Origin: Naegleria gruberi
Lineage: Eukaryota
Direction: 5' to 3' (one strand)
Length of the DNA stretch: 64,000 nt
Assembly (NCBI GenBank): GCA_000004985.1
Contig: GG738872.1
Below the pieces are notes generated by a model that did no database searches, had not been told where the DNA came from, and saw only the letters and a list, made by a program, of their open reading frames with translations. Of the stretch, positions 5,201 to 59,972 are shown in pieces. How positions within the stretch are numbered: position 1 is the stretch's first letter; every line of letters begins with the position of its first letter. The translations under genes were made by a program, and so were the position numbers.

Positions 5201-5997
5201 TTTCATGTATTGTACCACTAACAATTGTAGATAATAATAATGGTACCTATGATGTTAAATTCACTCCTCAAGCTAAGGGAAAACATTTGATTTCAATCAA
5301 GCATGATGGCCAAGATCTCAAAGATTCACCATTTCCAATCTTTGTCAGAGATGATGAGTTTGCTCCATATGCCAAGAATTGTCAAGTATTTGACAATCCA
5401 TCCAAGATGAAGACTACCAAACCACGTCACTTCTTTGTACAAATGAAGGATAAGGATAATAATCCAATTCTCTCTGGTGGTGATCCTCTCAAGGCCACGC
5501 TCAAGACACCTGAAGGAAAGCTCGTTCAACACCTTGCAGTCATTGATCCAAACACTGGTAAATATAAGATTCCACTCAATCCTAAGGTTCCAGGTAAATA
5601 TATTGTAACTTGTTCACTGGGTGATGAAGAAGATGGAGGTGAAGTCATTTCAGGTTCTCCATTCCATCTCAATGTTACACCTGGCATTTCACCATTGAAG
5701 ACTGAAATTGGTGATTGGGAATTTGACATTCAAACAGCTCAAGACAATGAACCAGAGGACTTATTCATCAAGATTAAATCACCATCTGGAAAAGTCATCT
5801 CACCAACCATCATCAAGTGTCCAAGACCTGAAAATCATCAACCAAATGATGATGACGAATACTCGAAAGGAGACAGATTCAAACTTATTATCAGAACTAC
5901 AGAAGTTGAAAAGGGAGACTACTTGATCTATGCTAATATTTGTGGATACCCAGTAAAGGGATCACCATTCAAGCAAACTCTAGATGTTAGATGTTAA
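2227..5997 (+). CDS. Filamin/gelation-factor (ABP-120)-like actin crosslinker: tandem CH1+CH2 actin-binding domain followed by multiple filamin-type Ig repeats. 2 exons (2227..2632, 2678..5997), ~1241 aa.
   Basis: Exon 1 encodes CH1 (WEETQTRAFTKWVNSHL...LGLIWTLILRFQI). A 45-bp intron GTAAGTTT...TTATTAG is phase 1. Exon 2 encodes CH2 (KMELLKWVQEKL...ALAALISTLKP...LMTYISYF), then many ~95-aa repeats with the filamin motif pattern (DNGDGTY.V.F.P...G.H.V.V...G..I..SPF.V). Confidence 0.9.
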
Positions 5998-6266
5998 TAA
6001 ATATGAAATGCTTAATTTAATTCAACAATTCCGAACACTTTCATGGGTTTTACACAATTAAGAACCAATTTTTACACCATTTCATTTTGTATTAAGGTAA
6101 ATTCAAATTTTCATTTTTTTTGAGAAGATTTAATTTTGGCGGCAAACTTTTCTCAATTCTAAATGTGAGATTTGTCCCAACTTGAACCTCATCCTCAGAA
6201 CTGTTGGTTAATTTGCCTGTTTTGATCCTCTTACACCAACTGGTCTGGGATTAAAACTTAAAAAAA

Positions 6267-7328
6267 ATGGCACTATTGCAATCATTATCCACACCACCAG
6301 TATTGTTATCGCTTGGTGTCGTGGGTGCTTCTGCAGTTTATTGGGGTAGAAAATTCTTCCTTGGTACTTACTGCCCCGATCACTTAAAACAAGGAAACTT
6401 GAAAGGACAAGTTGTGCTAGTGACTGGAGCTAGTAAAGGAGGGATTGGATATGAAACTGTCAAGGCATTGTATTTAATGGGAGCTACTGTTGTGATGGCC
6501 GTCAGAGATGTTTCCAGAAGTGAAAAAGAAAAGAAAGAATTAGAAATTGAAAGTGAAAGTTCAACAGTCAAAGGTCAATTAATTGTAATGAAAGTTGAAC
6601 TAGATGATTTGGAATCTGTGAGAGAATTTTCAAAAGAATTCCTATCCAAATTCGATAGATTAGATATTCTAGTCAATAATGCAGGAATTGGTGGAATGAC
6701 AGGTATTTCCAAACAAGGAATTGAAATTGCATTTTCAGTGAACCATCTCTCTCACTTTTTAATAGTTCATTATTTGAGACAACTCATTATTGATACCAGT
6801 ATTAAATATTCAAAGGAATGCAAGATTATTAATGTGAGCAGTATGGCACATGCTTATGCCAAGAGTTTGAAGTTTACAAAAGATGAAATTTCAATGAGTG
6901 ATACTTCAGTGAATGCTTATGGACAATCAAAGCTTTGTAATGTTTTGTTTACAAAGTCATTGGCTAGACAGTTGGAAAATACTAAAATTGGATGCTATTG
7001 TCTTCATCCAGGTAAGTTATTTCATTTTCCATCATTATTCATTTTTGGAAATTATTGAACTGTAGGTGCTGTGAATACCAATGTGTTTAGACATTTACCA
7101 TATTATGTTTCACTTGTGTTGAATGGATTGAAATGGTACTTTTTCAAAACACCTGAAAGTGGAGCCCAAACTCAAATCTATCTTGCTTTGGAAAAGATGG
7201 AAAAACTCTCATCTGGATCTTATTATGATGATTGTAAGAAAGCAAATGAATATGAATTATCAAAGAGTGTTGAACTTCAAGATCAATTGTGGAATTTGAG
7301 TGAAGAATTGATCAAGGATTTTATTTAA
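6267..7328 (+). CDS. Short-chain dehydrogenase/reductase, retinol-dehydrogenase (RDH11/12/WWOX)-like. 2 exons (6267..7011, 7066..7328).
   Basis: N-terminal TM/signal-anchor. Rossmann motif VLVTGASKGGIGYETVKAL, the NNAG motif (VNNAGIGG) and active-site S...YGQSK. A 54-bp phase-1 intron (G|GTAAGTTATT...ctgtag) joins ...CLHPG to AVNTNVF, giving the HPG(A/V)VxT motif typical of this SDR subfamily. Confidence 0.85.
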
Positions 7329-7358
7329 CAGTTTACCTTAAGTAAATATTAAGGTTGA

Positions 7359-8219
7359 TTAGATCTTTAATTTCTTATTTATTGAATTATTAAAAGCATC
7401 CAAGACATCAGTATCATTTCTCAATTCTTCATTCTCAATATGATCATATTCCACTTGATTTCTCCTCACTGCCTTGACAACAATTTCCTTATCATTTCTC
7501 AATGTTTTGTCGATGAATGTTAAAATTGGTGGTACAACACGATTTCTTACTTTGTACCTATCCATTACTTTCAATATCACTTCCTTATCTTTAAAATATC
7601 TTTCATAATATCGACTAAATGACTCATACTTGTAATAAATTAGAATTTGTTTTTCCATTTCTGGATTAGATCTAATACTGTTACATTGATTGTCAAAAGA
7701 TATGAATGATCTAGTAATTAATTGAATATTGAATTCCAAATCCATTTTCAATTCGGTTGGAATCATTTTATAATTCCAATCAGTTACACATTTAAGCATG
7801 AATGAAGTGTCATGTTTCAGCTCTTTACTGACATATCTCATGGCATATGAGTTTACTTTGATAGCTGCCATGACAACCTGTCTATCATTTCTAAGTTCCT
7901 GATTGGCATATTTCAATACATATCCATTTAGTTTACATGCCTTTAGAATAATTTCCTTCATATTTCTGTATTTCATTGGCAATCTTTTAAAATACCAAAT
8001 TTCTTCATTTTCAGCTTCCAATAAATAATAAACAATAGAATAATATGTTAAATATTCGGATGGAATTTGTTGAAATTTAACTTGTTTCGTTTTAATTAGT
8101 TTTATCAAATTTTGTGCTTCGTCAAGTTTATTTCGGAGCAAATTGGTTAGTAGTTGATTAGTATTACTACCATTGCTACTATCCATCCACAAATCAATTA
8201 GAATTACCTTTACACTCAT
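7359..8219 (-). CDS. DUF4116-repeat protein (tandem ~35-aa 'ELRNDKEIVxxAVxxNxxxxxY' repeats); function unknown
   Basis: True ATG (MSVKVILIDLW...) at 8219; the track start at 8318 is a TTG. Repeats visible include LRNDKEIVVKAVRRNQVEYDHIENEELRNDTDVLDAF and LRNDRQVVMAAIKVNSYAMRYVSKELKHDTSFMLKCV, matching the DUF4116 repeat pattern. Family assignment is from memory. Confidence 0.55.
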   Translation of the reverse strand: MSVKVILIDLWMDSSNGSNTNQLLTNLLRNKLDEAQNLIKLIKTKQVKFQQIPSEYLTYYSIVYYLLEAENEEIWYFKRLPMKYRNMKEIILKACKLNGYVLKYANQELRNDRQVVMAAIKVNSYAMRYVSKELKHDTSFMLKCVTDWNYKMIPTELKMDLEFNIQLITRSFISFDNQCNSIRSNPEMEKQILIYYKYESFSRYYERYFKDKEVILKVMDRYKVRNRVVPPILTFIDKTLRNDKEIVVKAVRRNQVEYDHIENEELRNDTDVLDAFNNSINKKLKI

Positions 8220-13500: not shown

Positions 13501-14798
13501 TTCTTTTCAAGTAAAACGTCTAAAAACTTTCTAATGAGTATTCCCTCACAAACAATTACTTGCATACCAGAAGTATCAATAATTGAGTTCAATTCTGGAG
13601 TGGATCTAGAAGGTTGAAGCCCAACTGTGGTAAATCCATTCCATGAACACATCAAATCAACAAGGGTATATTCAAATCTATTCTCATTTGTTGAAATACC
13701 AATCATTACTTCATTCTGATTTCCTGATAATAACCCTGAAAATCCAAGTGAACAATAGAACAATTCCTCCCTAACATCAGAGTAGGTTCTATACTTGAAT
13801 GTGTTTCCATGTCTAACTCCAACACAAGGTCTGTCATTATAGGTTCTAAACATGTTATTGACAAAAGTGTGAAGATTAGGAGAATTCAAAATATTCAATT
13901 TCATGAATACTACATCATTGTTCTCCAATATATATGGATAACCAAAGAAAGGATCCAATATTTTGATCTTTTCGTATAAATCTCTGTCATTTTCTTCTAA
14001 TTTGATTGTGTCAGTATTAATATCAAACTCTATTTGCTTTTTGAAACAAACTTGTTCAATTGTTTTCATCCAACCATAACAATGTTCACACTTGACAGAA
14101 TTCTTATCATTTGAAGAGATGCACCGATATCTAGGATTTCCCTCTCCAAGACCACCTGATTGAATGACCCAATCGCAAACTCCACATCGATCCTCCCATA
14201 AATTATCTCCAAATCGATCAGTAATTTTCCCAGAGTTGAATTCAACAGTACCTCCTCCGTTTCCCGAATCAAATGAACTACTATAAGTAACTTGCCATGG
14301 TAAATTAATATTCGCACTCTTCAATTCATTCGATAATTCATCCAATTCTCTAACAAACTTTTCATTCAATTTTGCAGATTCAATCATTTTCGGATTTTCC
14401 TCCAAATCATTGATCTTTCCCTGATTTTCAATAATAATAGTCTTGAACTCTCTCAATTCCCTCAAAAACTCATCAATATTCAAACAAGAACTATTATCAT
14501 CATTTTGATCATCATTTTGTAATTTCTTATTAATTTGTTCAATCTTTTCCATTCTCAATTTTACAAACTCTTCCTGAACAATCTTAAAATCAGCCCTCAA
14601 TTTCTCACTCTCCACCACATAGGTCCTTCTCACTAAATTACCCAACCGCAACAATTCAACAATTCTCTCAAAATAATTTTCACTCCTCTCCGGATTTAAA
14701 GATTTTAAATTCTCACAGTCGGCATAACAAGACTTTAAAAAGGGAAATTCTAATAGGATAGCAGTGTCATGATTTTTGATTTCAAGTTCTTGAGACAT
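10570..14798 (-). CDS. NRPS-like carboxylate-reductase-type enzyme: novel N-terminal domain + adenylation (AMP-binding) + PCP + thioester-reductase (R). 4 exons (14798..12767, 12724..12579, 12532..11909, 11817..10570), ~1349 aa.
   Basis: Adenylation core motif IFTSGSTSKAKG. Exon 2 carries ...EGFGCSECGGIATNG... and exon 3 carries YKTGDIV...IIDRRKN (A8 motif-like). PCP motif ...FTEMGGTS|I spans the exon 3/4 junction. R-domain Rossmann motif ITGGTGFVGSHLV plus ...YGDNLS.. follow. Introns of 42, 46 and 91 bp (GTAAGT..atag, GTTTGT..aatag, GTAAGT..cagag) are all frame-preserving and merge three track ORFs. The first ~300 aa contain a coiled coil and a Cys cluster (CGVC...C-x10-CEHC). Confidence 0.8.
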
Positions 14799-54062: not shown

Positions 54063-55289
54063 TTATTTTGGTGAAGGACTTCGTCTTGAGGGAAGAAGAG
54101 GATTGAGTTGGAAGTTATTACCTCCTTTTGGGGAACATGGACGAGCTCTCTTGAGTGGTGTGTACAATAGCTTTTGAGCTTCATTTCTATTGAATAAAAA
54201 TCCACTAGCTCCACTTGGTCTTTGATTTGATGATGCTGAGGAATTATTATTACTAGTTGAGTTGCCTAGAATACCATTTCTTTGGATATTGTTATGAGAT
54301 TGAGTAAGGGTAAATAATGGTGATCCTAAACATACATTTAGAGAAATGAAATCAATTTGAATACTTACTTGAAGGAACAGAGTTTGATTTACCCAACAAA
54401 TTGCTACCTATTGTTGTTCTATTTTCCTTACTATTGTTACTGTTGTTGGTAGGTGATTTGGACAATCTGAAATCCAAAACATTGGAAGGTCTTCCTGCAG
54501 AACTCTCCTTTCTGAACAATAAAGATACAGGTGGATTTTCTTGATTCTCTTTGAATGAAGGAGAAACTGAAGGATCTAAATCAACTGGAGAAGGTGCTCT
54601 TCCTGATGAATCCCGAGTTTGATCATATCTTCGTTTAAGGGAATTGTACAATTCTTGGAGTTTGTTTCTTTCTCTGACCTTTTCAGAGTACTTTTCTTGA
54701 ATGGTTTGAAATTCCCTCTTGGTAATTTCTTGTTGTTCCTCACTGTGTTGTAGCTTTTCGGCAATTGATTGATACTTTTGCTTGGTTTCATTCAGTTTAT
54801 CAGAGTAAGATCTTGATCATCAATTATATGTTGAAAGAGTTGAAATCATTTATACCTACTTTTCCATTTGTGATGCTTTGGATATTGTTTCCTTGTGAAG
54901 ATACTCTTGGTATTTAATTTCAACTTGTCGTTGGTTGTCCCAGAATTTTAAGGCTGATTGTGCAGCCTCAAGAACAACTTCAGGTGGGAATCCACAAAGG
55001 CACATCTAGATGAATTTAAATTATTCCTCAAATGATGAAGATGATTTAACTTACAGTTTTTTCTTCAATATTAGCCTTACTCAACTCCACTTGCCGAATG
55101 TCCCTTGAAGAAAGGGGTTTCTCGCAAGCAGGACAACTCATATCCTTTGAGAAATGTTTGATAGCATCATCCTTACCTTCATTAATCAAGGTTAAATCTT
55201 CATCAATGAAACAACTTACAAAATACATGATTACAACTGGTGATAAAGTAAACCTCCTCAACAGATTTCCAGCAAGCATTGCATTTCAT
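54063..55289 (-). CDS. HEI10/CCNB1IP1-family RING E3 ligase (meiotic pro-crossover factor homologue). 5 exons (55289..55220, 55176..55055, 55005..54860, 54811..54369, 54325..54063), ~347 aa.
   Basis: Assembled N-terminus MKCNACWKSVEEVYFITSCNHVFC|KDDAIKHFSKDMSCPACEKPLSSRDIRQVELSKANIEEKTV|MCLCGFPPEVVLEAAQSALKFWDNQRQVEIKYQEYLHKETISKASQMEK|K... is collinear with human CCNB1IP1 (LLCNYRKCRIKLSGYAWVTACSHIFCDQHGSGEFSRSPAICPACNSTLSGKLDIVRTELSPSEEYKAMVLAGLRPEIVLDISSRALAFWTYQVHQERLYQEYNFSKAEGHLKQMEK). A coiled-coil segment ...RERNKLQELYNSLKRRYD parallels NRQYQKLQGLYDSLR. Ser/Pro-rich tail. Introns of 43, 49, 48 and 43 bp, all GTAAGT or GTAGGT donors. Confidence 0.75.
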
Positions 55290-55339
55290 TTTTTTTGGCG
55301 GTTTTTAAAAATTGTTCAAACCATAACAAAGCGTTTTAT

Positions 55340-55710
55340 TTGCTCACATTAATTACCTGGCCCTACTATTAACACCATTAATGTTTCGTAGCACTGGTCA
55401 GTGTTATCCAATAGAAGCAAACATACGAGAGAGTACAAGCTCTCTTCCAACTAAATACAAGCTTCTGGGAAAGTCTCTGGATACTACAGATTTACATCTG
55501 TGCAGGTAGAAAGTACCGACTCGAATGAGTGCACGCCAAGAGGAAACTCGGACTTTGGTCTCACTGGTTTCTATCAATTCTATATAGGCATGAAAACACA
55601 ATGTCATTGGCATTGAACCAAATAGAGCTTACTGACCTGTGTTACTTTTTCTATTATTTGGCCAAAGTGACAAAATTAAATGGAATGTTATTGAGATTCC
55701 ATTTTTGTGC
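55340..55710 (+). ncRNA. Candidate structured small RNA (snRNA-like) in a GC-richer island between two minus-strand genes; identity unresolved and strand uncertain
   Basis: About 180 bp at ~45% GC versus ~30% in flanking intergenic DNA. Several perfect local hairpins (ACAGAU-UUAC-AUCUGU; GAGAGAG-UACAAGC-UCUCUUC). Plus-strand 5' motif AUUAAUUACCUGGCC resembles the U1 snRNA 5' end (AUACUUACCUGGC). A downstream Sm-like site AUUAUUUGG is followed by the 8-bp terminal hairpin AAUGGAAU-guuauugag-AUUCCAUU plus a U-run; this hairpin overlaps the stop codon of the convergent 55688..58820 gene. Confidence 0.25.
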
Positions 55711-58700
55711 AATTTCCATGTAATACACTTTCCCAGAACTTTCTTACTAGGTTCTTGTCCTCTGTTCTCTCACTGAAATAGTAACATCTGTACTTGAGAT
55801 TTTTCATATCTTGTGATTGACAAAGCTCTTCGTCCAGTTTCATATCTTCCTCATCACCAAATATACAACATAGTTTTTTTGACATGGCATTTGATTTCAA
55901 CCTGATAGTGGCTGGTTGATTGAACTCTCTTCTATCCATTCTTTCAACAAAGAGTACAATCTTGTCTGTATAAGTTAGAATTTCCTGAATGAATCTAGAA
56001 TAAACTCCATTCTCTCCAGTGATGAGTATTCTGCCAGATAACTCCAAACAAAGAACTACTACGTCACCCTTTTGTATAGGATAGCATGATGTCTTCTTTT
56101 CATTATTTACGTTTTGTTTCAGATTAATATCTTCTGGCTTTTTATCCTCCTCTTCCGAATCATTCTTCACAAGGACAATTGCATTTTCATCAAATTCATC
56201 ATCACTGCTCTCAAGGTTTTGAGTAAATGAGGCTGAAGTGTTGCTTATTGTACTAGTCTCTGTATCTGATTCACTGTCATCATTATTTTGAATTTCAAAT
56301 ATTCCCTTATCATTGGGTAATGGCAATAGTTGAGGAGCCTCTACTGATGTTCTGAAAATTTTCAATTTTTTAGCCCTTTCTTTCCTTCTACAATTGTAAA
56401 ATGTAAAAAACTAGCCAATAAGAATCGATTACTTACGATAAAGATTGAAGGGTTCCATAGCTCTGGGACTTTTTCATAGATGATTGATTGCTATCTGTGC
56501 TTCTTCTTCTTTTTGTTGGAGCATTCATTCCTGTCCAAAGATCTGTGATGGTCCTTCTGACTACAACATAATTGTTAACGGATTGAATTTTCTTTTCTGG
56601 TATAATATCTTTTCCATTCATGAATTGCTCTCTATTTCTCACACAAATTAGAATATTGTTGGTTTGTTTTTGATTCTTTTTGGCCTTCGACTCTAGATAT
56701 GACTTGGCAGAATAAAAGCTATTGACTGCAACTGATACTGTTTCTCTTTCGTTATCCAAACCAAAGAACCAAATATTTCTTTTTTGTTCATACTCCTGAA
56801 GATCCTTAATTTCAATCTTGACTTCAGAATTGGAAAAAAGTTTCATTACAGTATTAATAGAGGTCGACGAATCTTGTTTTGGATGTTGGACTGTAACCCG
56901 TTCTAAAGCCACATCAATGACCTCTCTAAAGAATTGAGAAAGTATAAGTTCTGTGGAAGCTGTTTGAGATTTTGTCATTCCTGATTTGTGTTGAACTATG
57001 AATGGTTTAGAGTTTGAGTAGAGGCTTGAAATTTCTATTTCAGCATCTTCTTTTCGTTTGATGGCATCATAAATATCGGTGCATTTATCAAGACCATGCA
57101 AAACAAAGAGTGTTGGAAAACCTTCCAAAAGCTTTAGCTTGTCCTTCAATCCTTTTTCCATCTTGTTACCAACAGTGGATAAAACTATTACCCCATCTAC
57201 ATTTGAGTGAGGTTCTATCGTTTGTTTTAATAACTCTTCATCTTCTTCATTCTTGAAAAAGTCTTCTGTTTCGGTACTAGTTTCTTTGAATTTATACATG
57301 CTGAAAGATCGGCAGCATACATCATCTCTTCTGAATAAAACATATCTATTTTCTTCATCCACTCGCTCAATATTATATCCTATCAATTTCACACAAGATT
57401 GAAACCATTGAATAAGATATCCTTTTTGACTTTCTGTGTGAGCAATAGTAGTTGAACCAATGAGGAATTTCATAAGATATTCCATCAAATTTCCTCCCAA
57501 GTACTGATCATTTTGTTCTATTTCAGAAATATCCAGCAACAGTAAAATGTTCAATCTTTCGTCCAACTTTCTTAAAAAAAGGAAGAAGAATAAAATACTT
57601 TCACGGAGTGTGTTTGTTGATTCGTCTTCATACATTTGAAGACCATGAAATTGGAGGGCATTTCTCGAACTTGCCTCACTAACCTTTTTCTTGTGGCCCT
57701 TCCTAATGGATATTTCTCTAATTTCATCATAATAAATATTGTTCGAAAGTTTGATAGCATCAATTGATGTGTTTTCGCATGGTCTATAATTTGGGAAAAA
57801 TCTGTAAGTAATTGGTTCCAATGTAAATGTAGAATAATCACTAAAAAGAAAGAGTGACTTGTTTACATTAGCTCCGAGAATAACATCCTTATTGTGAAAA
57901 TGCTCAATAAAATAGGCCTTACAGTGAAATGGTGATTGTTTCCTTTTTGTTGTCTTGTCTTGTTTTTCCTTATTTTTATCAGAAGATTCCTCATTCTCGT
58001 CAAACAGTTCCACTGAAGTTTGTGTTTTGGGTAAATTATTTCCATTGTATGAATTTCTTGCATTTCCAAAATATTTAGAGAATATAGTCTCTTGTTTGTC
58101 ATTTGTAGGAGGTGTAGTATTTGTAGAAGAGTTCATTTCTGAATCATACAACCCAACAACTAGAATAAAGTAGTCTGAATATGTATGAAAAGGAAATCGT
58201 CCCAAACAAAATGTGTTTGGTTCTATTTTGTACTTGATAATATTATTCCAATCAGGGAGACCTTCATTTGTTAGGTCAACCGTGTGACATGAGGAAAAGC
58301 AAAAGTGTCTATGACTTTTAAATTTCGAGTTTTGTGATTGTTTTTCAGTAGGTTGATTATAGAAATAGTAGGCAGGAGGGTAATCACATGGAGCACTAGT
58401 TTTGCTATTCAAAATAAGCGGGCTATTTTCCTTTTTCCAGTGAATGTGAAGACCTTTAACACCCCAATAAATTGGTTTATCGGTTTTGTTTTCCATACAG
58501 AATATTCCCCATTCTCTTTCCTTCTCAAAACTATTCAAAACAGAGGATGCTACCTTCTCTGGACCATTCTTGTTTTTGTTTTCGTTCCTTCCAGCTGAAA
58601 ACATGGAAGAGAAGAACCTGCTACTACTGCCTGTTCTTGTTGATGATGATGCAGTATTGTTGTCAACACCTTCTACTATTTCCTCCTCCTTCTCATCAAA

Positions 58701-59216: not shown

Positions 59217-59972
59217 ATGAGTAGAATTGTTAAGGCTATCGGAGATGCTGTTTTATCGCCATCGATAAGCAAACCTCTTTATTCAACTCATTATCCAACA
59301 TCATTTCTTGAAAAAACCTTCATCACTGCTGGATCAACATTAATTTCAGCATTTTATCCATTGAGAACAGACATGGTTGGAGCTTTGGGAGAAACAACAG
59401 GAACACCAGCATTGGAATATGTTAGAAGCCAAATGGTTTTAACAAAGGAAGGAAATGAAATTCTTAAAGAAAGACCAAATATTGATGAAAGAGTAAATCC
59501 AAAATTTTGGGAATATATTAGCACACTTCCACCAGATACTTTCGGAGGAGCCTATTACAAGTTCATGTCAACTAATGGATTTGTTGCTAGTGAAAGACCT
59601 CCAGTTAGATTTATTGATGACGAAGAATTGGCCTTTATTATGTTCCGATACAGACAATGTCACGACTATTTCCATGTGTTGGCTGATTTACCACCATCTG
59701 TTTATGCTGAAATTATTGTGAAATGGATTGAATTTTTCCAAACTAGATTACCGATGACTTTATTGTCAGGTGCTGCTGCACCTCTCACTCAACTAACTTT
59801 TGAACAACAAAAAGAGTTAGCTACTGTATTTTTGCCATGGGCTTTGGATGCTGGAAGAAATTGCAAATTCTTGATGGGAGTTTATTTTGAAAAGTATCAT
59901 TTGGAAAAACCTGTAGAACAAGTTAGAAAGGAACTCAATTTTAGAATTGCTCCTAGAAGTAACCTTGTGTAA
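59217..59972 (+). CDS. COQ4: Ubiquinone biosynthesis protein COQ4, 251 aa, intronless
   Basis: The zinc-ligand motif HDxxH-x10-E (FRYRQCHDYFHVLADLPPSVYAEIIVKWIEFFQTRLPM) and overall collinearity with COQ4 (human ...[37 protein letters not shown]). N-terminal mitochondrial-type leader. Confidence 0.9.
   Translation: MSRIVKAIGDAVLSPSISKPLYSTHYPTSFLEKTFITAGSTLISAFYPLRTDMVGALGETTGTPALEYVRSQMVLTKEGNEILKERPNIDERVNPKFWEYISTLPPDTFGGAYYKFMSTNGFVASERPPVRFIDDEELAFIMFRYRQCHDYFHVLADLPPSVYAEIIVKWIEFFQTRLPMTLLSGAAAPLTQLTFEQQKELATVFLPWALDAGRNCKFLMGVYFEKYHLEKPVEQVRKELNFRIAPRSNLV

What the first reader, a model, noticed from the sequence alone, without database searches (positions are those of the whole stretch)
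55340..55710. GC-rich structured island with snRNA-like hallmarks between convergent and divergent protein genes
In a genome whose intergenic DNA is ~70% AT, a ~180-bp stretch at ~45% GC with multiple perfect short hairpins is unexpected for a promoter. On the plus strand it contains UUACCUGGCC (compare the invariant U1 5' end ACUUACCUGGC), an Sm-like AUUAUUUGG, and a terminal 8-bp hairpin followed by UUUUU, the classic snRNA 3' organisation. Two things count against a canonical U1. The motif reads AAUUACCUG, which would mis-pair with the +5 G of this genome's dominant GTAAGT donors. The candidate would also be ~370 nt, long for a U1. It may therefore be a divergent U1 or another Sm-class or structured RNA. 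The 3' hairpin overlaps the stop codon of the minus-strand gene ending at 55688, so it might instead be that mRNA's 3'-end element. The whole island also doubles as the promoter of the HEI10-like gene.
Basis: seen in the sequence. Interest (0 to 1): 0.55.

Follow-up and report, generated by a model that had tools for sequence, protein, structure and literature searches.

The report
Naegleria RNase MRP RNA gene
The GC-rich, hairpin-rich island is the gene for the RNA subunit of RNase MRP, a ribozyme found in all eukaryotes that cuts ribosomal RNA precursors; it is not a spliceosomal snRNA, so it is an ordinary housekeeping gene.

Summary
The island is real. It is 41.6% GC against 28-31% in the flanks and contains several perfect short hairpins. 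The snRNA reading is wrong. Rfam gives one hit in the whole 64-kb window: RNase_MRP (RF00030) at 55388-55644 (+), full length, 61.1 bits (gathering score 50), E=1e-14. No U1, U2, U4 or U5 match appears even at E<=10.

The organism is Naegleria gruberi. Orthologues sit in the same head-to-head arrangement with the HEI10-like gene in N. fowleri, N. lovaniensis and an environmental relative. Over the four sequences, 97% of the proposed pairs form, and 10 pairs carry compensatory changes.

All diagnostic MRP features are present:
- a P4 pseudoknot with a bulged U
- a P3 helix-loop-helix
- a P8 GAAAG (GARAR) pentaloop
- a six-nucleotide CR-IV

Two smaller points are of modest interest. An invariant AACCATAAC sits at exactly -69 in all four taxa, and a T5-6 run follows the 3' end, which suggests an external promoter and Pol III. 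The N. fowleri orthologue scores below Rfam's gathering score. The kind is already known, so interest is low.

The parts
55319..55327 (+). Conserved upstream element AACCATAAC at -69..-61 relative to the RNA 5' end; candidate external promoter element
   Evidence: It sits at an identical position, -69, in N. gruberi, N. fowleri (L001 5740-5748), N. lovaniensis (L127 3652-3644) and metagenome contig L131 (670-662). It accounts for 9 of only 12 invariant columns in -110..-1. Its distance to the HEI10-like ATG varies (30 to about 349 nt), while its distance to the MRP +1 is fixed.
55388..55644 (+). RNase MRP RNA (predicted mature RNA, 257 nt; probably extends into the following C and U-tract)
   Evidence: Rfam RF00030, full-length model 1-266, 61.1 bits against a gathering score of 50, E=1.3e-14. 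It is the only hit in the window. Orthologues in three other Naegleria-type genomes show 10 compensatory pairs.
55389..55401 (+). P1 5' strand; pairs with 55632-55644
   Evidence: 12 pairs with a conserved 1x1 mismatch. Column 10/268 covaries as G-C, A-U and G-U.
55403..55408 (+). P2 5' strand (GUUAUC); pairs with 55592-55597 (GAAAAC)
   Evidence: Placed by the Rfam alignment. The helix is weak: 79% of cells are paired and an A.A mismatch is conserved.
55412..55467 (+). P3 domain: P3a (55412-55418 / 55461-55467), an internal loop whose 5' side is AAACAUACG, and a P3b hairpin (55427-55446)
   Evidence: Matches the Rfam P3 consensus uACAuACGG. One P3a pair covaries between G-C and A-U. Folds of each species show a helix-loop-helix.
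55467..55483 (+). CR-I (GGGAAAGUCUCUGGAUA), containing the P4 5' strand 55471-55478 with bulged U55474, then GGA (55479-55481), the candidate P5 5' strand
   Evidence: Read from the sequence and the Rfam alignment. P4 is 100% paired in all four taxa. CUCU/AGAG differs from the family consensus CCCC/GGGG by two doubly compensated changes.
55485..55502 (+). Lineage-specific hairpin inserted between P5 5' and P8
   Evidence: All 6 pairs covary across the four taxa: ACAGAU/AUCUGU, CCAUG/CAUGG and CUGGG/CCCAG. The Rfam alignment treats it as an insertion.
55505..55517 (+). P8 hairpin GGUA-GAAAG-UACC with a GARAR pentaloop (55509-55513)
   Evidence: The GARAR loop is a defining MRP feature according to PMC1796607 and PMC13184271.
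55519..55530 (+). P9-like hairpin (ACUC-GAAU-GAGU)
   Evidence: The closing pair covaries between A-U and C-G. The loop is GAAA in the other taxa.
55540..55549 (+). Short distal hairpin of the variable domain (P10/P12 region)
   Evidence: One pair covaries between A-U and G-C. Stem length and loop differ between taxa.
55586..55591 (+). CR-IV, six nucleotides (AGGCAU), directly followed by the P2 3' strand
   Evidence: The six-nucleotide AGNNAN is MRP-specific; RNase P has eight nucleotides (PMC13184271).
55599..55615 (+). eP19 hairpin (CAAUGUC-AUU-GGCAUUG)
   Evidence: 7 bp, invariant in the four taxa. Aligned to the Rfam P19 helix.
55616..55631 (+). CR-V (AACCAAAUAGAGCUUA), containing the P4 3' strand 55624-55630
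55645..55650 (+). C followed by T5: probable Pol III terminator and 3' end
   Evidence: GUGUUAC followed by T5-6 is conserved in all four taxa, and similarity stops right after the T run. The chance of a T5+ run starting within 3 nt of a random position in this window is 0.9%.

Best explanation
Window 55388-55644 (+) encodes the RNA subunit of nucleolar RNase MRP of Naegleria gruberi.

Shown here: the RNA has the RNase P/MRP catalytic core, with P1, P2 and P3 and a P4 pseudoknot between CR-I and CR-V carrying the universal bulged U. It also has the MRP-specific signatures: a P8 GARAR pentaloop and a six-nucleotide CR-IV directly before the P2 3' strand. It is conserved, with compensatory changes, in three further Naegleria-type genomes at the same locus.

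Inferred from established knowledge of the family: the RNA assembles with the Pop/Rpp proteins, and P3 binds the Pop6/Pop7-type dimer. The P8 loop docks on P4, and CR-IV acts as the -2 anchor for a single-stranded substrate. The RNP cleaves pre-rRNA in ITS1.

Inferred from footprints: transcription is driven by an external element, AACCATAAC, fixed at -69. It ends at the T5-6 run immediately after P1, so RNA polymerase III is the likely enzyme.
For: - Rfam RF00030 is the only hit in the 64-kb window: 61.1 bits against a gathering score of 50, full model, E=1.3e-14, and E=1.3e-16 in the local scan, where it out-competes the other clan member.
- The organism is N. gruberi; Coq4 at 59217-59972 is 100% identical.
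- Orthologues: N. fowleri L001 5809-6079, 46.2 bits; N. lovaniensis L127 3583-3313, 56.2 bits; metagenome contig L131 601-342, 253 bits with my model R1. All lie head-to-head with the HEI10-like gene.
- Structure over four taxa: 97.0% of cells are paired, with 10 pairs and 13 cells carrying changes on both sides. Slid controls give 35-43% paired and 0-3 such pairs.
- P4 CUCU/AGAG is doubly compensated relative to the family consensus CCCC/GGGG, and Rfam's model does not include the P4 pairing.
- P8 loop GAAAG and CR-IV AGGCAU match the criteria in PMC1796607 and PMC13184271.
- The Naegleria-built model R1 reciprocally hits Rfam-confirmed MRP RNAs of unrelated eukaryotes (33.5, 24.6, 18.7 and 13.8 bits). 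It does not hit the RNase P RNA on L117.
- Promoter and terminator footprints are shown.
Against: - There is no expression data, so the 5' and 3' ends are predicted only.
- P2 is weak: 79% of cells are paired and an A.A mismatch is conserved.
- P4, P5, P8 and P19 are invariant within the genus, so their support comes from family-level comparison rather than from covariation within Naegleria.
- The score is at the low end of true hits, which ranged from 62 to 157 bits in 15 metagenomic MRP RNAs.
- The N. fowleri orthologue is below the gathering score.
- No MRP RNA was found next to the HEI10-like or Coq4 genes of Willaertia magna.
- No conserved TATA box lies at -30, so the polymerase assignment rests on the T run alone.
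Confidence: 0.96

Rival explanations
1. It is a divergent U1 or another Sm-class spliceosomal snRNA of about 370 nt spanning 55340-55710.
For: The N. gruberi sequence contains AAUUACCUGGCC (55350-55362), AUUAUUUGG (55655-55663) and a 9-bp hairpin followed by UUUUU (55678-55709).
Against: No snRNA family matches at E<=10 on either strand of 55200-55800. All three motifs lie outside the block that is conserved between species, and they are absent from the three orthologous loci. A T5 terminator conserved in four taxa separates the RNA body from the 'Sm site' and the hairpin. The interior is fully accounted for by RNase MRP helices.
Confidence: 0.005
2. It is the nuclear RNase P RNA, the sister family in Rfam clan CL00002, rather than MRP RNA.
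For: The two families share the P1-P4 core, CR-I, CR-IV and CR-V. A lower-scoring overlapping match from the same clan was reported and suppressed.
Against: Clan competition selects RNase_MRP. CR-IV has six nucleotides (AGGCAU), not the eight of RNase P. The P8 loop is the MRP-specific GARAR. Model R1 hits MRP RNAs and not the RNase P RNA on contig L117. The domain after P4 is a short P8/P9/P10 set without a recognisable CR-II/CR-III specificity domain; this last point is by inspection only.
Confidence: 0.02
3. It is not an independent gene. The structured island would be a cis-element of a neighbouring gene, either the 3'-end element of the convergent mRNA that stops at 55688 or the promoter of the HEI10-like gene.
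For: The 9-bp hairpin 55678-55704 does enclose the stop codon of the minus-strand ORF. The region 55290-55387 must contain the HEI10-like promoter.
Against: The conserved block (55388-55650) is strand-specific in its structure and covaries as RNA helices. The hairpin at the stop codon is not conserved. The AACCATAAC element keeps a fixed distance to the RNA while its distance to the HEI10 ATG varies. This reading also cannot explain a full-length match to a 266-position covariance model.
Confidence: 0.015

Closest known systems
RNase MRP RNA (Rfam RF00030; human RMRP, yeast NME1)
   Same: Full-length covariance-model match above the gathering score. It has P1, P2, P3a/loop/P3b, a P4 pseudoknot with bulged U, CR-I/CR-IV/CR-V, a P8 GARAR pentaloop, P9, eP19 and a six-nucleotide CR-IV directly before the P2 3' strand.
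   Different: - P4 reads CUCU/AGAG instead of CCCC/GGGG.
- CR-IV N3 and N6 are G and C (AGGCAU) rather than U and U.
- An extra covarying hairpin sits between P5 5' and P8. Similar insertions occur in some metagenomic MRP RNAs such as L069 and L124.
- P2 is weak, and the variable domain is short.
- The environmental relative has a GCAAG P8 loop.
Nuclear RNase P RNA (Rfam RF00009)
   Same: A homologous catalytic core (P1-P4, CR-I, CR-IV, CR-V) in the same Rfam clan.
   Different: RNase P RNA has an eight-nucleotide CR-IV, P7 instead of P5, a CR-II/CR-III specificity domain and no GARAR P8 loop. None of these P-type features is seen here.
Upstream promoter elements of small-RNA genes: Dictyostelium DUSE (~-60), plant USE, metazoan PSE
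   Same: A short C-rich/CCA-type element at a fixed distance of about 60-70 nt upstream of a small non-coding RNA gene that ends in a T run. DUSE is described as lying ~60 nt upstream and as serving both Pol II and Pol III genes (PMC7919456).
   Different: The link is by analogy of position only, and the sequence resemblance to DUSE is recalled from my own memory. The Naegleria element has been seen at one gene in four taxa. No other Naegleria small-RNA genes could be examined. No conserved TATA box lies at -30, and no binding factor has been identified.
U1 snRNA (Rfam RF00003)
   Same: Only a 9-10-nt resemblance (UUACCUGGC) to the U1 5' end, in N. gruberi alone.
   Different: There is no model match. 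The motif is upstream of the RNA and is not conserved. There is no conserved Sm site.

Membership tests
RNase MRP RNA (RF00030) | Full-length match to the curated covariance model at or above the gathering score | tested here: met
   61.1 bits against 50, model positions 1-266, E=1.3e-14. N. lovaniensis scores 56.2. N. fowleri scores 46.2, which is below the gathering score.
RNase MRP RNA (RF00030) | P4 pseudoknot between CR-I (GNAAAGUC...) and CR-V (...GCUUA) with a bulged U | tested here: met
   AAG(U)CUCU at 55471-55478 pairs with AGAGCUU at 55624-55630, giving 7 bp plus a bulged U. All cells are paired in four taxa. Two doubly compensated differences separate it from the family consensus.
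RNase MRP RNA (RF00030) | P8 hairpin with a 5'-GARAR-3' pentaloop (PMC1796607, PMC13184271) | tested here: met
   GGUA-GAAAG-UACC at 55505-55517. The environmental relative has the variant GCAAG.
RNase MRP RNA (RF00030) | Six-nucleotide CR-IV (AGNNAN) located 0-3 nt before the P2 3' strand; RNase P has eight | tested here: met
   AGGCAU at 55586-55591 is followed directly by GAAAAC, the P2 3' strand.
RNase MRP RNA (RF00030) | P3 helix / internal loop / helix domain | tested here: met
   P3a has 7 bp with one covarying pair. The loop AAACAUACG matches the consensus ACAuACG. A P3b hairpin is present in every taxon.
RNase MRP RNA (RF00030) | Three-base-pair P5 immediately adjacent to CR-I (PMC13184271) | tested here: inconclusive
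   GGA (55479-55481) can pair with UUC (55569-55571) in all four taxa. The pairs never vary, so the pairing is neither supported nor contradicted.
RNase MRP RNA (RF00030) | Terminal helices P1 and P2 enclosing the core | tested here: met
   P1 is 98% paired with one covarying pair. P2 is only 79% paired with a conserved A.A mismatch.
RNase MRP RNA (RF00030) | Stable ~260-nt transcript assembled with Pop/Rpp proteins; endonucleolytic cleavage of pre-rRNA ITS1 | not testable with these tools
   No RNA-seq or biochemical data are accessible here.
U1 / Sm-class snRNA | Match to an snRNA covariance model (U1, U2, U4, U5 and others) | tested here: not met
   The only match at E<=10 in 55200-55800 on either strand is RNase_MRP. 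No snRNA hit occurs anywhere in the window at the gathering score.
U1 / Sm-class snRNA | Conserved 5' splice-site-pairing sequence at the RNA 5' end, and a conserved Sm site before a 3' hairpin | tested here: not met
   UUACCUGGCC (55353-55362), AUUAUUUGG (55655-55663) and the hairpin 55678-55704 occur only in N. gruberi. The orthologous positions in three other taxa are unrelated sequence.
Nuclear RNase P RNA (RF00009) | Eight-nucleotide CR-IV (AGNNNNAU) and best score within clan CL00002 | tested here: not met
   CR-IV has six nucleotides. Clan competition keeps RNase_MRP. Model R1 does not hit the RNase P RNA of L117.

The most novel reading that the evidence does not exclude
The invariant AACCATAAC at exactly -69..-61 is the external promoter element of Naegleria small-RNA genes, a counterpart of the PSE, USE or DUSE elements. 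It would drive TATA-less, probably Pol III, transcription of MRP RNA from a shared bidirectional region with the meiotic HEI10-like gene. If it recurs upstream of U6, 7SL, RNase P and snRNA genes, it would define the first described small-RNA promoter code in Heterolobosea. It would also give a handle for finding ncRNAs that covariance models miss; the N. fowleri MRP RNA already falls below Rfam's gathering score.
Probability: 0.45. Interest if true: 0.3.

Novelty: already known. Interest (0 to 1): 0.12.

Why it matters
The main value is correct annotation. An apparently odd GC-rich 'snRNA-like' island is a universal housekeeping ribozyme gene. The ORFs that overlap it (55404-55613 minus strand, 55529-55723 plus strand) are spurious.

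Some secondary points are useful:
- The work gives a four-taxon, covariation-supported structure for a heterolobosean (Discoba) MRP RNA.
- The MRP-specific P8 GARAR loop and six-nucleotide CR-IV hold in this deep-branching lineage.
- The human pathogen N. fowleri's orthologue would be missed at Rfam's gathering score.
- A strictly positioned upstream motif is a testable candidate for the Naegleria small-RNA promoter.

Tried and rejected
- Exact-product look-ups for three window proteins and for the N. gruberi Coq4 cluster representative P0001 found nothing. The organism was identified through Coq4 homology instead.
- The gathering-score Rfam scan of the N. fowleri and Willaertia Coq4 loci found nothing. 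The N. fowleri gene appeared only in the E-value scan.
- The N. lovaniensis homologue of the 225-aa neighbour (L004) is not adjacent to MRP RNA.
- Willaertia magna has no MRP RNA near Coq4 (L003) or near the HEI10-like gene (L128), either by model R1 with filters off or by the Rfam E-value scan. Synteny therefore does not extend beyond Naegleria-type genomes.
- A metagenome scan with a Naegleria-specific CR-I...CR-V pattern gave 0 hits.
- A general CR-I...P8 pattern gave 120 hits, most of them chance matches, as expected from the pattern's information content. Fifteen were Rfam-confirmed MRP RNAs, none a close relative. I did not use these for P4 covariation, because I had preselected them for CR-I/CR-V complementarity, which would make the argument circular.
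- The bacterial-type promoter and terminator scan was uninformative.
- The nested minimum-free-energy and RNAalifold folds pair part of CR-IV with CACGCC. I rejected this pairing in favour of the family architecture.
- Literature searches found no paper in the library describing Naegleria MRP RNA. Davila Lopez et al. 2009 is not held.

Full report
**Observation**

- The stretch 55388-55644 is 41.6% GC. The window as a whole is 33.6%, and the adjacent intergenic DNA is 28-31%. Individual 100-nt windows reach 44-45%.
- Perfect short inverted repeats lie at 55428-55445, 55486-55501 and 55678-55704.
- TTACCTGGCC (55353-55362), ATTATTTGG (55655-55663) and the terminal hairpin followed by TTTTT are all present.
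- The flanking genes are also as described. A RING/HEI10-like gene starts at 55289 on the minus strand. A convergent minus-strand ORF stops at 55688.

**Identification**

A gathering-score Rfam scan of the whole window returns a single hit. It is RNase_MRP (RF00030) at 55388-55644 on the plus strand, covering model positions 1-266, at 61.1 bits against a gathering score of 50, E=1.3e-14. A permissive scan (E<=10) of 55200-55800 on both strands returns only this family. One lower-scoring match from the same clan is suppressed, and no U1, U2, U4 or U5 match appears.

The window comes from Naegleria gruberi. Its Coq4 (59217-59972) is 100% identical to the NCBI N. gruberi protein, 86% to N. fowleri and 77% to Willaertia magna.

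**Orthologues**

- In N. fowleri the locus is syntenic: PARP-like gene, HEI10-like gene, a gap, two further genes, then Coq4. The gap contains an RNase_MRP match at L001 5809-6079 (46.2 bits, E=1.5e-11 locally). This is below the gathering score, so the gathering-score scan missed it.
- Using the HEI10-like protein as a handle, I recovered the N. lovaniensis gene at L127 3583-3313 (56.2 bits).
- The same handle recovered a fourth, environmental relative on JGI metagenome contig L131 at 601-342 (253 bits with my model R1).
- In all four taxa the RNA gene is head-to-head with the HEI10-like gene.
- Pairwise RNA identity is 79-81% between lineages, and 92% between N. fowleri and N. lovaniensis.
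- Willaertia has no copy next to either marker gene.

**Structure**

I laid the family architecture on the alignment: P1, P2, P3a, the P4 pseudoknot, P5, an inserted hairpin, P8, P9, a distal hairpin and eP19.
- Over four taxa, 97.0% of 236 cells form standard pairs. Ten pairs (13 cells) have changes on both sides. When the 3' partners are slid by 1-3 columns, only 35-43% of cells pair and 0-3 pairs show such changes.
- Compensatory changes fall in P1 (1 pair), P3a (1), P9 (1), the distal hairpin (1) and the inserted hairpin (6 of 6 pairs).
- P4, P5, P8 and eP19 are invariant within the genus.
- P4 nevertheless carries family-level support. Naegleria has AAG(U)CUCU/AGAGCUU where the Rfam consensus has AAG(U)CCCC/GGGGCUU. 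That is two doubly compensated substitutions in a helix that the Rfam model does not encode.
- P2 is weak: 79% of cells are paired and an A.A mismatch is conserved.
- The plus strand folds better than shuffled sequences (z = -2.46), and the minus strand less so (z = -1.26).

**Membership**

Published diagnostic features of MRP RNA, as opposed to RNase P RNA, are a P8 pentaloop GARAR, a six-nucleotide CR-IV lying 0-3 nt before the P2 3' strand, and a 3-bp P5 next to CR-I. These come from PMC1796607 and PMC13184271.
- The P8 hairpin is GGUA-GAAAG-UACC (55505-55517).
- CR-IV is AGGCAU (55586-55591), directly followed by GAAAAC, the P2 3' strand.
- GGA (55479-55481) can pair with UUC (55569-55571) to form P5, but these pairs never vary, so P5 remains inconclusive.
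- As a reciprocal check, the Naegleria-built model R1 finds Rfam-confirmed MRP RNAs of unrelated eukaryotes full-length (L038 33.5, L071 24.6, L105 18.7, L121 13.8 bits). It does not find the RNase P RNA on contig L117.
- Naegleria's 61 bits sits at the low end of the 62-157 bits seen for 15 metagenomic MRP RNAs, which fits a divergent lineage.

With the upstream regions anchored on the RNA 5' end, the UUACCUGGCC motif lies at -35..-26. That is outside the RNA, and the other three taxa have unrelated sequence there. The Sm-like site and the 9-bp hairpin lie beyond a conserved T5-6 run, and they too have no counterpart elsewhere. They are N. gruberi-specific coincidences. The hairpin encloses the stop codon of the convergent ORF and may or may not matter for that mRNA.

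**Expression signals (inferred)**

- In -110..-1 only 12 columns are invariant among the four taxa. Nine of them are the contiguous block AACCATAAC at -69..-61 (window 55319-55327; L001 5740-5748; L127 3652-3644; L131 670-662).
- Its distance to the RNA is fixed. Its distance to the HEI10-like ATG varies from about 30 to about 349 nt. This ties it to the RNA gene.
- A T/A-rich TTTAT-like stretch follows a few nucleotides downstream of the motif. No TATA box is conserved at -30.
- At the 3' end, GUGUUAC followed by T5-6 is conserved, and similarity ends right after the T run. A T5+ run starting within 3 nt of a random position has a chance of 0.9% in this window.
- Together these suggest an external promoter element and Pol III termination. 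The element resembles in position the ~-60 DUSE of Dictyostelium small-RNA genes (PMC7919456). The polymerase assignment and the promoter function have not been tested.

**Mechanism**

By homology, which is established family knowledge and is not tested here, the RNA is the catalytic subunit of the nucleolar RNase MRP ribonucleoprotein.
- P4, CR-I, CR-IV and CR-V form the active site.
- P3 recruits the Pop6/Pop7-type proteins.
- The GARAR loop docks on the P4 minor groove.
- The six-nucleotide CR-IV anchors the -2 nucleotide of a single-stranded substrate (PMC13184271).
- The enzyme cleaves ITS1 of pre-rRNA.

**Verdict**

This is a real feature, identified with high confidence (0.96) as the RNase MRP RNA gene. 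It belongs to a universally known family and is detectable with a standard Rfam scan, so I rate it already known and of low interest. I found no paper in the searchable library that describes the Naegleria gene itself. The only modestly new points are the candidate promoter element at -69, the covarying inserted hairpin, and the N. fowleri orthologue scoring below the gathering score.

Noticed in passing
L001 5809-6079 (N. fowleri VFQX01000029.1): The N. fowleri RNase MRP RNA scores 46.2 bits, below Rfam's gathering score of 50. Routine Rfam-based annotation of this pathogen would therefore miss it. N. lovaniensis scores 56.2 and N. gruberi 61.1.
   Followed up: yes
L001 5228-5541 and 6077-6079: There are two probable annotation problems in N. 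fowleri. The HEI10-like CDS is called from 5228 and omits the RING-finger exons visible at about 5300-5541. The neighbouring CDS 6077-7455 (-) ends 3 nt inside the MRP RNA 3' end.
   Followed up: partly
L117 424-2451 (metagenome contig): U1 snRNA (2345-2451, cut by the contig end), nuclear RNase P RNA (1514-1822) and RNase MRP RNA (424-677) all lie on the same strand within 2.4 kb. This is a small-RNA gene cluster in an unidentified eukaryote.
   Followed up: no
window 55331-55342 (about -57..-46) and the equivalent positions in L001, L127 and L131: A T/A-rich TTTAT-like stretch follows AACCATAAC by a few nucleotides in all four taxa, with small shifts in register. No TATA box is conserved at -30. 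It could be a displaced TATA-like element, or it could mean the primary transcript starts upstream of the mature 5' end.
   Followed up: no
L005 and L006 (run ERR1078381, labelled a metagenome): Two contigs are 100% identical to N. gruberi. They carry the 225-aa neighbour gene, and both end at window position 55566, inside the MRP gene. The reason for the shared break point is unknown.
   Followed up: no
window 55678-55704: A perfect 9-bp inverted repeat (AAATGGAAT/ATTCCATTT) encloses the stop codon (55688-55690) of the convergent minus-strand ORF. It is found only in N. gruberi. It may be an mRNA 3'-end feature or a coincidence.
   Followed up: partly
window 55404-55613 (-) and 55529-55723 (+): Two mechanical ORFs of 69 and 64 aa overlap the MRP RNA gene. 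They are almost certainly spurious.
   Followed up: partly
window 14072-14080: The only other AACCATAAC in the window lies inside the AMP-binding-domain ORF. This is at chance level: 0.65 expected per window, and 14 of 100 shuffles give at least 2 matches.
   Followed up: partly
L131 463-475 (minus strand): The environmental Naegleria-like MRP RNA has a P8 loop of GCAAG instead of GAAAG, CR-I GGUAAAG instead of GGGAAAG, and CR-IV AGGAAU. These are natural variants at positions that are otherwise highly conserved.
   Followed up: partly
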